Shown piece by piece: positions 34,988-36,058 of a stretch of DNA of 64,000 bases. The position numbers and the translations under genes were made by a program. Under the pieces are notes generated by a model. It was given only the letters and a program-made list of their open reading frames with translations. It did no database searches and was not told the DNA's origin. This stretch comes from a virus, in the IMG/VR virus record IMGVR_UViG_3300025325_000001, one strand, 5' to 3'. The stretch's first letter is position 1. Each line of letters starts with the position of its first letter.

Positions 34988-35016
34988 TTGACAGGCCCCG
35001 CGCGAGAGAGTAAGCT
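34988..35016 (+). promoter_or_regulatory. promoter TTGACA-17-TAAGCT upstream of the ncRNA array
   Basis: -35 at 34988..34993, 17-nt GC-rich spacer, -10 at 35011..35016. Nearly the same architecture recurs at 38257..38285. Confidence 0.5.
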
Positions 35017-35026
35017 GCCGAGAGCA

Positions 35027-35092
35027 GGCCGGTGCGCCGAGTAGGGTTACTTCTTCATCGGGACGAACACCTTGCTCATCTAGTTCTCGGTT
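35027..35092 (+). ncRNA. Y-RNA-like module A (minimal, ~66 nt)
   Basis: Closing stem GGCCG/CGGTT. 5' GTGCG-N7-GGGTTACTTC (35032..35053). 3' TAGTTCT (35081..35087). Confidence 0.45.
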
Positions 35093-35227
35093 TGCATTGA
35101 TCTTTGACAAATCTGAGCTGCGCTATCTAGGCGCTTCCATACCGAGAGGATGGTCGGAGTATTGCGTATACACAAAGGCATACTTTGCAGCGTAGCTCAG
35201 ACCCTAGTGCCTTGAGGGGCACGTACT

Positions 35228-35367
35228 GTGCAGGTGCGTAGGAATGGGTTACTTCTCATTGGTGAGAGAGGTCGCAGGTTCGAGTCCTGTCATGGTGTGG
35301 CACCGGCCCACCATGTAGCTCAGTTGGCAGAGCGCTTACGTTACCTTTTCCGCCTTGTCCTCTGCAC
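35228..35367 (+). ncRNA. Y-RNA-like module B with complete permuted tRNA-like domain (YrlA-like)
   Basis: Closing stem GTGCAG/CTGCAC. GTGCG-N7-GGGTTACTTC. Variable-arm-like hairpin. T-arm GCAGG-TTCGAGT-CCTGT. Capped 7-bp acceptor-like stem CATGGTG/CACCATG. D-arm GCTC-AGTTGGCA-GAGC. GTTACC pairs with GGTTAC. 3' TTGTCCT. Confidence 0.65.
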
Positions 35368-35374
35368 AGTTAAA

Positions 35375-35457
35375 GTTTGGAGTGTGCGTATGGTGTGCAG
35401 GGAGATCCTGCAACAGGTTGCGCCTTCGCGCCACGATGAAACAAAGCACACTCCAAG
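35375..35457 (+). other. additional stem-loop structure between modules B and C
   Basis: 11-bp outer stem TTGGAGTGTGC/GCACACTCCAA encloses hairpins GCAGG-gagat-CCTGC and GCGC-cttc-GCGC. Contains GTGCGTA but not GGGTTACTTC. Confidence 0.3.
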
Positions 35458-35562
35458 AACTTGACAAATTGAATGATGTACTGGCGACGAATACTCGCAT
35501 CTCTAGCAGCCGTTGTCTAACTGAGATGTGGGAACGGCTCGGTCAGTACATCATTGAGTTTG

Positions 35563-35675
35563 TAACGTAGCGATGCGATGTTCGTGGGTTACTTCTCACC
35601 GCAGCACGTAGGTTAGAGAAACCTACAATCAGATTACATCTGACCGACCTTCGACAACTTGTTCTCGCTACGTTA
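35563..35675 (+). ncRNA. Y-RNA-like module C (~113 nt)
   Basis: Closing stem TAACGTAGCG/CGCTACGTTA. ATGCG-N8-GGGTTACTTC (35586). Internal hairpins GTAGGT...ACCTAC and CAGAT-tac-ATCTG. 3' TTGTTCT. Confidence 0.45.
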
Positions 35676-35684
35676 GAATTTGAT

Positions 35685-35825
35685 GCCGGTGCGATGAAGT
35701 GGGATACTTCGTACATTGGTTCGAATCCAATACCAGATTGCGGTCTGGTTGGCAGAGTGGCTTAATGCTACGGGAATGCAAAAGTTCCCTATACGGGAAA
35801 ATGCCTACTTCGCTTGGTTCTCGGC
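35685..35825 (+). ncRNA. Y-RNA-like module D with permuted tRNA-like domain
   Basis: Closing stem GCCG/CGGC. GTGCG-N7-GGGATACTTC. T-arm ATTGG-TTCGAAT-CCAAT. Capped stem ACCAGA/TCTGGT. D-like arm GGCA-GAGTGGCTTAA-TGCT. Hairpin GGGAA/TTCCC. 3' TGGTTCT. Confidence 0.6.
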
Positions 35826-35926
35826 GTCAATGAACGTCTCCATCATGGGACGATAAATCCCTCTCAACTCAGTGGTCGGCGTGTGGGTATGACATCCCCG
35901 GACAAGCTGAGGGCGCGATGGAGACT

Positions 35927-36058
35927 CAGTCAGGTGCGTAGATGTGGGTTACTTCATGGAGCAAGCAGTCGGTGTAAAAAGCCGGTTGCGATAGGGTTCA
36001 AATCCCGCAGTTGAAAAAATACTGCACTTGTTACCTTCGTCGCCTAGTTCTCTGACTG
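35927..36058 (+). ncRNA. Y-RNA-like module E with partial tRNA-like domain
   Basis: Closing stem CAGTCAG/CTGACTG. GTGCG-N7-GGGTTACTTC. T-arm-like GGG-TTCAAAT-CCC. Capped stem GCAGT/ACTGC. GTTACC. 3' TAGTTCT. Confidence 0.55.

What the first reader, a model, noticed from the sequence alone, without database searches (positions are those of the whole stretch)
34988..36058. Five tandem Y-RNA-like modules, two with complete circularly permuted tRNA-like domains, upstream of a phage Ro60 gene
About 1.2 kb between the AP2 gene and the ORFs preceding rsr has no convincing ORF but is packed with RNA structure.

Five units share a bipartite signature. The 5' part is (G)TGCG-N7/8-GGG(T/A)TACTTC, with the GGG at 35044, 35246, 35586, 35701 and 35946. 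The 3' part is T(A/T/G)GT(T/C)CT at 35081, 35355, 35658, 35815 and 36045.

Each unit is closed by a terminal helix whose sequence differs but stays complementary: GGCCG/CGGTT, GTGCAG/CTGCAC, TAACGTAGCG/CGCTACGTTA, GCCG/CGGC, CAGTCAG/CTGACTG. That is covariation, which argues for RNA rather than protein.

In unit B the order is T-arm (35274-35290), a 7-bp acceptor-like stem capped by a loop (35291-35315), TA, then D-arm (35318-35333). This is a tRNA opened at the anticodon loop and closed at the acceptor end. Unit D repeats the layout (35715-35769) and unit E keeps part of it.

This is the architecture I recall for YrlA-type bacterial and phage Y RNAs that bind Ro60 (Rsr). An rsr homolog starts 670 nt downstream, and a TTGACA-17-TAAGCT promoter sits just before unit A.

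What looks unusual is five heterogeneous modules in one phage locus, and a shared signature I do not recognise as the canonical Ro-binding helix.
Basis: partly seen in the sequence, partly recalled or inferred. Interest (0 to 1): 0.85.

Follow-up and report, generated by a model that had tools for sequence, protein, structure and literature searches.

The report
Tandem Y RNA array beside Ro60
A phage carries five different small structured RNAs in a row, all sharing the stem that probably docks onto the phage's Ro60 protein encoded just downstream; this is an enlarged, lineage-specific version of a known RNA-protein partnership, not a new kind of system.

Summary
GGGWTACTTC occurs five times in 64 kb, all on the + strand within 35044-35955 (0.16 expected). 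Each copy lies in a unit closed by a 5'/3' helix.

A covariance model built only from 18 units of unrelated viral contigs finds exactly these five units and nothing else. Unit B scores 104.7 bits; B also gives a partial Rfam YrlA hit.

The signature is not foreign. It is a lineage variant of the known Y-RNA 5' motif plus the conserved YUAY, joined to a conserved 3' strand. It sits upstream of Ro60 genes, on the same strand, in many viral contigs.

Two corrections apply. Unit D is tRNA-like but keeps its own anticodon-like arm, so the Ro60 stem sits where a variable arm would be. Five units is the upper tail, not unique: among 80 Ro60 loci the median is 2, and 7 have five or more.

No transcript or binding data exist. 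Verdict: a new variant of a known kind, of moderate interest. The spacers hold further structured RNAs, including a widespread phage motif absent from Rfam.

The parts
34988..35016 (+). Candidate promoter TTGACA-17 nt-TAAGCT. The predicted start falls at the base of unit A's closing stem.
   Evidence: Read directly. The same layout, TTGAC[AT]-17-TA[AG][GT]CT immediately before the first unit, is present in L001, L125 and L244. The generic sigma-70 scan did not flag it because the -10 hexamer is only TANNNT-like. Inferred, not shown.
35024..35095 (+). Unit A: short Y RNA (about 72 nt), consisting of the Ro60-type stem and a small terminal loop or hairpin (YrlB-like).
   Evidence: Fold and motif. 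Model R1 scores 38.6 bits, E 7e-8. Ortholog at L001 2678-2754.
35112..35222 (+). Spacer element Z, closed by a 13-bp stem (35112-35124 with 35189-35201), followed by the hairpin 35207-35222. It lacks the Y signature.
   Evidence: Fold z = -2.2. L001 has, at the same position, an element closed by a different 14-bp stem with similar internal stretches (read). Function unknown.
35225..35370 (+). Unit B: canonical YrlA-type Y RNA. Order: stem, V hairpin 35252-35268, T arm 35274-35290, 7-bp acceptor-like stem-loop 35291-35315, UA, D arm 35318-35333, stem.
   Evidence: Rfam YrlA 35 bits, E 1.5e-5, model positions 24-84. Model R1 104.7 bits, E 2e-24, full length. ARAGORN calls the permuted sequence a tRNA with the Y stem at the anticodon-arm position. 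In L001 and L244 the T stem and acceptor stem keep pairing with different sequences.
35379..35454 (+). Spacer element X: three-way junction with the invariant core AUGGUGUGCAGGGAGAUCCUGCAAC and a 3' junction UGAAACAAAG. It is not a Y RNA.
   Evidence: Fold z = -4.1. Homolog in L001 with a compensated closing stem. The exact 22-mer is in more than 116 IMG/VR contigs. No Rfam hit.
35465..35562 (+). Spacer element W: a long imperfect hairpin of about 98 nt that abuts unit C.
   Evidence: MFE -44.4 kcal/mol against -25.2 for shuffles, z = -5.8. Not conserved by sequence in L001. It could be a processing site (inference).
35563..35675 (+). Unit C: Y RNA whose effector module is two plain hairpins (35608-35626 and 35629-35643), with no tRNA features. 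Its 5' motif is GAUGCG.
   Evidence: Model R1 scores 23.9 bits, E 9e-6, found only with filters off. The stem ortholog in L001 (3057-3190) carries a different internal module.
35680..35830 (+). Unit D: Y RNA with a class-II-tRNA-like module. Order: T arm 35715-35731, acceptor-like stem with UGCG loop 35732-35749, D arm 35751-35769, anticodon-like hairpin 35772-35789 with an 8-nt loop. The Ro60-type stem leaves from the variable-arm position.
   Evidence: ARAGORN cloverleaf of the permuted sequence. Model R1 52.7 bits, E 2e-11, but its D-arm columns do not align. No Rfam hit. Ortholog L001 3513-3666 is 91% identical with a compensated acceptor stem. This layout was seen only in the window and L001.
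35836..35925 (+). Spacer element V, closed by the 9-bp stem GUCUCCAUC/GAUGGAGAC.
   Evidence: Fold z = -1.2, not significant on its own. Listed for completeness.
35926..36059 (+). Unit E: Y RNA with hairpin 35965-35989, T-arm-like hairpin 35994-36006 (loop UUCAAAU) and hairpin 36007-36025. It has no D arm.
   Evidence: Model R1 scores 44.2 bits, E 3e-9. Its internal module matches L001 unit 4, while its closing stem matches L001 unit 6.
36124..36716 (+). Three small ORFs with strong ribosome-binding sites (36124-36276, 36327-36605, 36624-36716) between the array and Ro60. They have Cys-rich, zinc-ribbon-like sequences.
   Evidence: No Pfam hit for the two tested, 36124-36276 and 36327-36605. 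Absent in L001, where the array abuts Ro60.
36732..38282 (+). Ro60 (Rsr) homolog, 516 aa, the presumed protein partner.
   Evidence: Pfam TROVE 3e-17 and vWA_Ro60. PDB 9KOP/9L5Y phage Ro60, 1e-35. 44% identical to the Ro-like proteins of Streptomyces phages.

Best explanation
The interval 35024-36059 encodes five different Y RNAs, the non-coding RNAs that bind the ring protein Ro60. They lie on the same strand as the phage Ro60 gene that starts 674 nt downstream.

Common docking module. In each unit the 5' and 3' ends pair into a closing helix. Next comes a conserved, imperfectly paired segment: 5' G(G/A)UGCG opposite 3' U(A/U/G)GU(U/C)CUC. A second, covarying helix ends in GGG(U/A)UACUUC. This module most likely binds Ro60.

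Distal modules differ and most likely recruit different partners:
- Unit A is a bare hairpin.
- Unit B is a canonical YrlA-type permuted tRNA mimic.
- Unit C has two hairpins.
- Unit D is a class-II-tRNA-like mimic with its own anticodon-like arm.
- Unit E has a T-arm-only module.

Expression. The array is probably transcribed from the conserved promoter at 34988-35016 as one precursor. That precursor may run on into the small ORFs and Ro60, and would be cut into 70-150-nt RNAs, as in Mycobacterium smegmatis. By analogy with Deinococcus, Salmonella and Thermus phage phiLo, the RNPs would tether or gate Ro60 with host nucleases such as PNPase during infection.

Shown here: the sequence anatomy, covariation, linkage to Ro60 and tRNA likeness. 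Inferred: transcription, processing, Ro60 binding and partners.
For: - Motif counts: five hits against 0.16 expected.
- Linkage to Ro60: a DNA-only scan for the 5' motif in IMG/VR gave 23 loci with a Ro60 homolog immediately downstream on the same strand.
- Covariation in 64 units: the closing helix is 91.6% paired, and 8 of its 10 pairs show changes on both sides. The covariation score is 0.62 against 0.17 in shuffles (0 of 500 reach it). Sliding the partner strand drops pairing from 81% to 40-55%.
- Independent model: R1, built from 18 units of other contigs (window, L001, L051 and L061 excluded), finds B at 104.7 bits, D at 52.7, E at 44.2, A at 38.6 and C at 23.9. Nothing else in 64 kb stands out except a weak T-loop match.
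- Census: the same model gives 204 full-length hits in 80 Ro60 loci, all on the Ro60 strand, nearly all within 1.5 kb upstream.
- Rfam: a partial YrlA hit on unit B. A mycobacteriophage locus of the described kind scores the same, 34 bits.
- tRNA likeness: ARAGORN accepts permuted B and D. Shuffling both arms abolishes the call, 0 of 100.
- Published motifs (PMC4201824; bioRxiv 10.1101/312249): the 5' GNCGAA / GGUCCGA-like motif and the conserved YUAY. The window's GGUGCGA shares 6 of 7 bases with GGUCCGA, and UUAC/AUAC fits YUAY.
- The promoter layout is conserved in four loci.
- There is no conserved ORF.
Against: - There are no transcript, processing or binding data.
- No unit reaches the Rfam YrlA gathering score of 69 bits.
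- The window's 5' motif departs from the published GNCGAAN0-1G. Only CG and the flanking G's are kept, and CGAA itself is absent from all five units.
- The units used for the covariation test and for model R1 were picked with the signature and a duplex-energy filter. The stem part of those tests is therefore partly circular. The T, acceptor and D parts are not.
- The conserved segment cannot be drawn as a clean helix, and its pairing register is unresolved.
- ARAGORN's call depends mainly on the T arm: with the D arm shuffled it still-86 of 100.
- There is no terminator after the array, so it could act within the Ro60 mRNA leader rather than as free RNAs.
Confidence: 0.82

Rival explanations
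1. The array works in cis as a structured leader of the Ro60 operon. Ro60 would bind its own 5' untranslated modules to autoregulate translation or stability, so the units are not released as free trans-acting Y RNAs.
For: The array is on the same strand as Ro60. No terminator lies between it and the downstream ORFs. In L001 the last unit ends about 40 nt before the Ro60 start codon, and in most loci the last unit ends within 50-200 nt of Ro60.
Against: In M. smegmatis, YrlA and YrlB are likewise upstream of rsr on one precursor, yet they are processed and found bound to Rsr as discrete RNAs (PMC4201824). In the window, 674 nt and three ORFs separate the array from Ro60. L322 has units downstream of Ro60. 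The two roles do not exclude each other.
Confidence: 0.1
2. The units are tRNA-derived decoys or remnants that act independently of Ro60, for example as baits for host tRNA-cleaving defence nucleases. Their position next to Ro60 would only reflect a shared RNA-repair neighbourhood.
For: B and D are good tRNA mimics. In Streptomyces phage BRock the Ro60 gene and four such units sit inside a tRNA gene cluster. Some related units even pass the Rfam tRNA threshold (L051).
Against: A and C have no tRNA features, and E only a T-arm-like hairpin, yet all three share the same conserved stem. That stem, not the tRNA part, is what tracks Ro60 genes across loci. Neither B nor D has a free acceptor end or a 7-nt anticodon loop.
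Confidence: 0.05
3. The GGGTTACTTC boxes are repeated protein-binding sites in duplex DNA (operators or iterons), and the apparent RNA folds are incidental.
For: There are five near-identical 10-mers in direct orientation within 1 kb.
Against: Spacing is irregular, at 115-340 bp. Every box is paired with a 3' partner and flanked by helices that change sequence while keeping complementarity. The units include T, D and acceptor-like arms. Orientation always follows the Ro60 strand in 80 loci.
Confidence: 0.02
4. The interval encodes small proteins.
For: ORFs of 66-78 aa exist. A 44-aa ATG ORF (35436-35570) looks protein-like by eye.
Against: tblastn of these ORFs against the closest relative gives only short pieces in different frames and out of order. 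The 44-aa ORF has no ATG in L001 and overlaps a hairpin with z = -5.8. There is no Pfam hit for the one ORF tested (35228-35464).
Confidence: 0.01

Closest known systems
YrlA and YrlB of Salmonella Typhimurium and Mycobacterium smegmatis (Chen et al. 2014, PMC4201824; Rfam RF02553)
   Same: They are encoded within a few kb of rsr on the same strand. The 5' and 3' ends pair into a stem carrying the Ro60 site. The effector module runs V loop, T arm, acceptor-like stem, D arm (unit B). YUAY is conserved. A 7-bp acceptor-like stem is present, as in M. smegmatis. A tRNA-like RNA is paired with a shorter hairpin RNA (units B and A). In M. smegmatis the RNAs come from one precursor upstream of rsr.
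   Different: The 5' motif is G(G/A)UGCG rather than GNCGAA. The 3' strand is also conserved, whereas only the 5' strand is reported as conserved in bacteria. There are five units instead of two. No unit reaches the Rfam threshold. Unit D has a different junction topology.
Y-RNA-like sequences of mycobacteriophages (Bixzunavirus, e.g. ET08 and HyRo)
   Same: They are phage-encoded and lie directly upstream of the Ro-like gene. HyRo has three tandem units with the same plan, GGCCGA-N8-CGGUUAYC ... CAUGUCU. Its tRNA-like unit scores 34 bits on Rfam YrlA, like unit B.
   Different: The stem sequence differs, and their Ro60 is only about 25% identical to the window's. HyRo has three units rather than five. 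Only the tRNA-like one appears to have been reported.
Yrl1 and Yrl2 of Thermus phage phiLo (PMC12135203)
   Same: Two Y-like RNAs lie upstream of a phage Ro60, which binds them and forms a complex with host PNPase. That Ro60 is the closest solved structure to the window's protein.
   Different: Those RNAs were defined by a CGAA motif and a stem-bulge-stem shape, with no tRNA-like domain described. There are two units, and no array of diversified modules.
Deinococcus radiodurans Yrn1/Yrn2 locus
   Same: Several small RNAs are encoded upstream of rsr. Yrn2, a tRNA and Yrn1 are made as one precursor. Both strands of the Ro60-binding helix are retained. tRNA-like features sit in a different orientation from YrlA, which shows that topology varies within Y RNAs (PMC4201824).
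   Different: It is cellular, not phage. The sequences are unrelated and closer to the metazoan GGUCCGA helix.
Unannotated arrays in Streptomyces phage BRock and in IMG/VR contigs
   Same: They have the same stem signature (GAUGCG/GGUGCG ... GGWUACUUC), the same position before Ro60 and mixed short and tRNA-like units. BRock has four units at L120 2429-2900. L001 has six, L244 has 8-9 and L277 has eight.
   Different: These are relatives, not a described family. None is annotated in the one GenBank record inspected (BRock; the IMG/VR contigs carry no annotation), and I found no paper describing them in the held library.

Membership tests
Y RNA (Ro60-associated non-coding RNA) | Encoded close to a Ro60 ortholog and on the same strand (within about 4 kb in bacteria and phages) | tested here: met
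   The array ends at 36059 and the Ro60 ORF starts at 36732 on the + strand. The same arrangement holds in 78 of 80 related loci. The other two lack upstream DNA.
Y RNA (Ro60-associated non-coding RNA) | A long stem formed by pairing of the 5' and 3' ends | tested here: met
   Closing helices of 8-10 bp plus a second helix in all five units. Covariation across 64 units.
Y RNA (Ro60-associated non-coding RNA) | Conserved Ro60-contact motif in the 5' strand (metazoan GGUCCGA; bacterial GNCGAAN0-1G) | tested here: inconclusive
   The window has G(G/A)UGCG followed by NNG. GGUGCGA shares 6 of 7 bases with GGUCCGA, but the bacterial pattern is not matched and CGAA is absent from all five units. Many relatives have GUGCGAAG. 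This comparison is by eye against motifs quoted in PMC4201824.
Y RNA (Ro60-associated non-coding RNA) | Physically bound by Ro60, and stable as a discrete RNA of about 70-150 nt | not testable with these tools
   No expression or binding data are available.
YrlA (Rfam RF02553) | Reaches the Rfam gathering score (69 bits) | tested here: not met
   Unit B scores 35 bits for model positions 24-84 only. Units A, C, D and E give no hit at E up to 10. A mycobacteriophage locus of the kind used to define the family also scores only 34 bits, and none of 16 related loci passes. The threshold therefore excludes this whole phage group.
YrlA (Rfam RF02553) | Effector module ordered V loop, T arm, acceptor-like stem-loop, UA, D arm, with the conserved T- and D-arm nucleotides | tested here: met
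   Met for unit B. Unit D has the T arm, acceptor-like stem and a divergent D arm, but adds a hairpin and has no V loop. Unit E has only a T-like hairpin. Units A and C have none.
YrlA (Rfam RF02553) | Conserved YUAY where the stem meets the effector module | tested here: met
   UUAC in units A, B, C and E, and AUAC in unit D, inside GGGWUACUUC.
YrlA (Rfam RF02553) | tRNA-type modification (pseudouridine 55, dihydrouridine), and RNase P cleavage when the acceptor-like stem has 7 bp | not testable with these tools
   Units B and D do have 7-bp acceptor-like stems, which makes RNase P cleavage a testable prediction.
tRNA | Recognised as a tRNA gene in its native order, with a free acceptor end and a 7-nt anticodon loop | tested here: not met
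   Rfam tRNA and ARAGORN find nothing in 34988-36058. Only in-silico permuted sequences are called. Unit D's anticodon-like loop has 8 nt.

The most novel reading that the evidence does not exclude
The array is a combinatorial adaptor set. One phage Ro60 would be pointed at five or more different host or phage partners by Y RNAs that share a docking stem but carry exchangeable effector modules.

These modules appear to be shuffled between docking stems in related phages. The window's unit E combines the module of L001 unit 4 with the stem of L001 unit 6, and unit C and its L001 counterpart share a stem but not a module.

The set includes a mimic not described before: a class-II-like tRNA whose variable arm is replaced by the Ro60-binding stem. 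It keeps an anticodon-like arm free, and so could engage a different set of tRNA-binding proteins than YrlA does.

The spacer RNAs, including the widespread motif X, would be functional parts of the same transcript, serving processing, antitermination or sensing.
Probability: 0.25. Interest if true: 0.7.

Novelty: new variant of a known kind. Interest (0 to 1): 0.45.

Why it matters
Why Ro60-bearing organisms keep several Y RNAs, and what the tRNA-like module does, are open questions stated in the papers I read (PMC4201824; bioRxiv 10.1101/312249).

This phage lineage offers a natural series of 5, 6 and 8-9 modules with one docking stem and different heads. Two distinct tRNA-mimic topologies occur in the same transcript.

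That makes partner identification directly testable: pull-downs per module, RNase P and CCA-adding assays on units B and D, and swaps of heads between stems.

There is also a practical point. The Rfam YrlA model misses this whole group, which comprises hundreds of Ro60 loci in IMG/VR. Isolated phages such as BRock carry unannotated arrays. A covariance model like the one built here would annotate them.

Tried and rejected
- Rfam at gathering thresholds on the whole window: only two tRNA hits elsewhere.
- Rfam at E up to 10 on 34800-36200: the partial YrlA hit on unit B, otherwise noise.
- Megablast of 20 kb of the window against GenBank phages: no match.
- blastn of the array against GenBank phages: only a 92-nt match of the tRNA-like core to mycobacteriophages.
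- Ro60-based scans: genome contigs gave nothing. Metagenome contigs gave only one new informative locus, L125. L121 duplicates L001.
- My first 3' motif regular expression was wrong by one base and missed most units. It was fixed.
- L010 looked like a five-unit array under a relaxed pattern. Its spacings are all multiples of three and no Ro60 is nearby, so I treat it as a probable coding repeat and do not use it.
- A 44-aa ORF (35436-35570) was considered and rejected.
- An internal promoter-like site at 35651-35679 is within chance expectation and is not conserved in L001.
- RNAalifold on element X failed to recover its closing stem, because two junction variants misalign. A flank-swap control was used instead.
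- A search of the paper library for the X core sequence found nothing.
- Two reviews (PMC10870794, PMC6542706) are not held, so I could not check what they say about the number of Y RNAs per phage.
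Full report
OBSERVATION. The stretch 34868-36123 has no convincing ORF. The longest stop-free run in 35017-36100 is 83 aa.

GGG[TA]TACTTC occurs five times in the 64-kb window, all on the + strand, at 35044, 35246, 35586, 35701 and 35946. Shuffles expect 0.16. Each copy is preceded by (G/A)TGCG, and each is followed 30-110 nt later by T[ATG]GT[TC]CT.

The bases outside these two halves pair into closing helices of 8-10 bp whose sequences differ between units.

The ORF 36732-38282 is a Ro60 homolog. It has TROVE at 3e-17 plus the Ro60 vWA domain. 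Its closest solved structure is the Thermus phage phiLo Ro60, at 1e-35. The AP2-type ORF ends at 34867, and TTGACA-17-TAAGCT lies at 34988-35016.

ANATOMY. All five units share one plan:
- a closing helix;
- a conserved, imperfectly paired segment, 5' G(G/A)UGCG opposite 3' U(A/U/G)GU(U/C)CUC;
- a second helix of about nine pairs that varies in sequence and ends in GGGU/ACCU;
- then UACUUC and a unit-specific module.

The five modules are as follows.
- Unit A (35024-35095) has only a small terminal loop or hairpin.
- Unit B (35225-35370) has a V hairpin, T arm, 7-bp acceptor-like stem-loop, UA and D arm.
- Unit C (35563-35675) has two plain hairpins.
- Unit D (35680-35830) has a T arm, a 7-bp acceptor-like stem capped by UGCG, and a D arm (GGCA-GAGUGGCUUAA-UGCU). 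From my own knowledge of tRNA-Ser, Leu and Tyr, this D arm looks like that of class II tRNAs. Unit D then has a further hairpin, 35772-35789.
- Unit E (35926-36059) has a hairpin, a T-like hairpin with loop UUCAAAU, and another hairpin.

IS IT RNA, AND IS IT TIED TO Ro60? Four independent lines say yes.

1. A DNA-only scan of IMG/VR for GTGCG-N6-9-GGGWTACTTC returned 117 loci, most of them chance hits at that pattern length. In 23 of them a Ro60 homolog (36-76% identical) starts 70-2,500 nt (mostly under 600 nt) downstream on the same strand.

2. I aligned the two stem halves of 64 units from about 30 loci.
   - The closing helix is 91.6% paired, and 8 of 10 pairs show changes on both sides.
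   - The whole stem has a covariation score of 0.62 against 0.17 in shuffles (0 of 500 reach it).
   - Sliding the partner strand by 1-3 columns drops pairing from 81% to 37-55%.
   - Caveat: the 3' halves were chosen by motif and duplex energy, which inflates the paired fraction. The slide control and the variety of pair types are less affected.

3. RNAalifold on 18 full-length tRNA-like units from other contigs recovered the closing helix, second helix, T arm, acceptor-like stem and D arm. Of its 31 pairs, 21 have compensatory changes.
   - The window, L001, L051 and L061 were excluded from this set.
   - The covariance model built from it finds four hits in the whole window: B at 104.7 bits (E 2e-24), D at 52.7, E at 44.2 and A at 38.6. 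Otherwise there is only a weak T-loop match at 18676.
   - With filters off on 34800-36300 it also finds C at 23.9 bits (E 9e-6). Everything else scores 2.7 bits or less.

4. Rfam's YrlA model hits unit B over the T arm, acceptor-like stem and D arm (35 bits, E 1.5e-5). This is below the 69-bit gathering score. A mycobacteriophage locus of the kind in which phage YrlA was first reported scores the same, 34 bits. None of 16 related loci passes. The threshold therefore excludes this whole phage group rather than this window specifically.

The rival readings fare poorly. No ORF is conserved with the closest relative: tblastn gives short pieces in different frames and out of order. A DNA-site reading does not explain the paired halves, the compensated helices or the strict co-orientation with Ro60.

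THE SIGNATURE. Chen et al. 2014 (PMC4201824) describe two elements:
- a 5' motif GNCGAAN0-1G, likened to the metazoan GGUCCGA that Ro60 contacts;
- a conserved YUAY at the start of the V loop.

The structure paper (bioRxiv 10.1101/312249) adds that only the 5' strand is conserved among bacteria.

The window's GGUGCG(A) shares 6 of 7 bases with GGUCCGA, and UUAC/AUAC is YUAY. Many relatives have GUGCGAAG, which contains CGAA. Mycobacteriophage HyRo has three tandem units of the same plan with GGCCGA-N8-CGGUUAYC. Streptomyces phage BRock has four, with GAUGCG ... GGWUACUUC, unannotated between a tRNA gene and its Ro-like gene.

The signature is therefore a lineage variant of the known docking module. 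What differs is that the 3' strand (UUGAUCUC or UWGUYCUC) is conserved as well. That it binds Ro60 is an inference from position, conservation and linkage. The pairing register of this segment is unresolved.

tRNA LIKENESS. Native B and D are not called tRNAs. After cutting in the loop that caps the acceptor-like stem and rejoining, ARAGORN calls both.

For B, the Ro60-type stem takes the place of the anticodon arm and the V hairpin that of a long variable arm. This is the published YrlA layout.

For D, ARAGORN draws:
- a 7-bp acceptor stem;
- a D arm;
- a 5-bp anticodon-like arm with an 8-nt loop;
- the base of the Ro60-type stem (UACGGG/UUCGUA) as the long variable arm;
- a T arm.

L001 gives the same drawing with a different, compensated acceptor stem (ACAUGUGC/GUGCAUGU against ACCAGAU/GUCUGGU) and the same UGCG loop.

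Controls: shuffling the T arm drops calls to 4-7 of 100, and shuffling both arms to 0. Shuffling the D arm alone leaves 79-86 of 100. ARAGORN therefore vouches mainly for the T arm, the acceptor stem and the spacing.

Among the 65 structurally filtered units from the motif-scan and other early loci, classified, D's geometry occurs only in the window and L001. An exact pattern for it finds only the L001 contig in IMG/VR. The anticodon-like hairpin is identical in the two phages, so it has no covariation support.

HOW UNUSUAL IS FIVE? I took the 80 best Ro60 relatives in IMG/VR, chosen by protein only (377 relatives exist), and searched them with the model at default filters.

This gave 204 full-length hits, all on the Ro60 strand. 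My tally of that table, which sums correctly to the 206 rows, is:

| Units per locus | Loci |
|---|---|
| 0 (both lack upstream DNA) | 2 |
| 1 | 11 |
| 2 | 35 |
| 3 | 16 |
| 4 | 9 |
| 5 | 5 |
| 6 | 1 |
| 8 | 1 |

- The usual pair is a unit of about 70 nt followed by a tRNA-like unit of about 137 nt just before Ro60. This mirrors YrlB plus YrlA.
- Like for like, the window scores 4 at default filters, which places it in the top fifth. By eye it has 5.
- Its two closest relatives have 6 units (L001, Ro60 76% identical) and 8-9 units (L244, 77%).
- Large arrays are thus a trait of this lineage and of a few others.
- I found no paper in the held library that describes arrays of more than two phage Y RNAs. 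Two reviews could not be read.

MODULE EXCHANGE. Between the window and L001, A, B and D are orthologous. C shares its stem but not its inner module. In L001 that module is an acceptor-like hairpin, a D arm and an anticodon-like arm. The window's E has the inner module of L001 unit 4 and the closing stem of L001 unit 6. Order also differs. This points to recombination between units at the shared stem (inference).

EXPRESSION (INFERRED). TTGAC[AT]-17-TA[AG][GT]CT precedes the first unit in the window, L001, L125 and L244. In each case a start about 7 nt downstream would fall at the base of the first closing stem. No terminator follows the array. A single precursor running into the small ORFs and Ro60, processed as in M. 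smegmatis, is the simplest reading.

The spacers are themselves structured. Z (35112-35201) has a 13-bp closing stem. X (35379-35454) folds with z = -4.1. W (35465-35562) is a 98-nt hairpin with z = -5.8. These may be processing sites or separate RNAs.

MECHANISM AND COMPARISON. By analogy with D. radiodurans RYPER, Salmonella YrlA and phage phiLo (PMC4201824, PMC12135203), each RNA would dock on the outer face of Ro60 through the shared stem. Its head would be used to tether a partner or to gate the ring. Five heads would give five specificities. This step is not shown here.

Membership: the units meet the structural and contextual features of Y RNAs. Unit B meets those of YrlA except the Rfam score. 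The published 5' motif is only partly matched. Binding and expression cannot be tested here.

VERDICT. It is a new variant of a known kind, of moderate interest.

Noticed in passing
window 35379-35454 (+); also L001 3200-3285 and loci L128-L243: Element X is a roughly 76-nt three-way junction inside the array. It has a variable closing stem, an invariant core AUGGUGUGCAGGGAGAUCCUGCAAC (a hairpin with loop GAGAU), a variable hairpin, and a 3' junction UGAAACA(AAG).

It is in only 6 metagenome-assembled genomes among 185,579 species genomes. It gave no blastn match among GenBank phages (one representative, E 0.01 or less).

The flanks pair over a median of 7 bp, against 3 in a flank-swap control. 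It sits just upstream of phage replication and recombination genes (ResIII/DEAD helicase, DnaA-C-like HTH, ERF, DnaB_C, AAA_25/PriCT primase-helicase) or of a tRNA. It often follows a terminator-like CCCTTTTTTG.

There is no Rfam 15 match and no hit for the sequence in the paper library. It is a candidate new phage riboswitch-, ribozyme- or antiterminator-like motif.
   Followed up: partly
L001 3680-3856 (+): In the closest relative, a manA RNA (Rfam RF01745; 57.4 bits against a gathering score of 55.2; E 1e-11) lies inside the Y-RNA array, between the D-type unit and the last unit. The window has a different 100-nt spacer there, with no manA hit.
   Followed up: no
window 18639-18700 (+): A 62-nt tRNA-like sequence has a good acceptor stem, D arm and T arm but almost no anticodon arm. 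It scores 42.9 bits on Rfam tRNA, with 13 model positions replaced by 1 base. ARAGORN does not call it. A strong ribosome-binding site follows. A normal tRNA-Tyr(GTA) lies at 14798-14870.
   Followed up: no
window 35112-35222 and 35465-35562 (+): Two further structured spacers lack the Y signature. One is closed by a 13-bp stem; L001 has a counterpart closed by a different 14-bp stem, with similar inner stretches such as UAUACACAAAGGCAUA against UAUAGACAAAGACAUG. The other is a 98-nt hairpin (z = -5.8) that ends exactly where unit C begins. They may be RNase III-type processing sites or additional RNAs.
   Followed up: partly
L120 2429-2900 (Streptomyces phage BRock, NC_048650) and L119 2880-3250 (Mycobacterium phage HyRo, NC_028869): Isolated, sequenced phages carry four (BRock) and three (HyRo) tandem Y-type units directly upstream of their Ro-like genes. 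The GenBank records show no feature there. In BRock the Ro60 gene and its units sit in the middle of a cluster of about 20 tRNA genes.
   Followed up: partly
L051 (units at 699-1133 of the reverse strand) and L001 3057-3190: Other units in this family carry differently arranged tRNA pieces. One L051 unit has D arm, anticodon arm and T arm in native order, with the Ro60-type stem in place of the acceptor stem, and it passes the Rfam tRNA threshold. L001 unit 3 has an acceptor-like hairpin, a D arm and an anticodon-like arm but no T arm.
   Followed up: no
L322 5445-6169: In one related contig three Y-type units lie downstream of the Ro60 gene, in addition to two upstream. The array position is therefore not fixed.
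   Followed up: no
window 36124-36716 (+): Three small Cys-rich ORFs (50, 92 and 30 aa), each with a strong ribosome-binding site, sit between the array and Ro60. They are absent from L001. There is no Pfam match for the two tested, 36124-36276 and 36327-36605.
   Followed up: no
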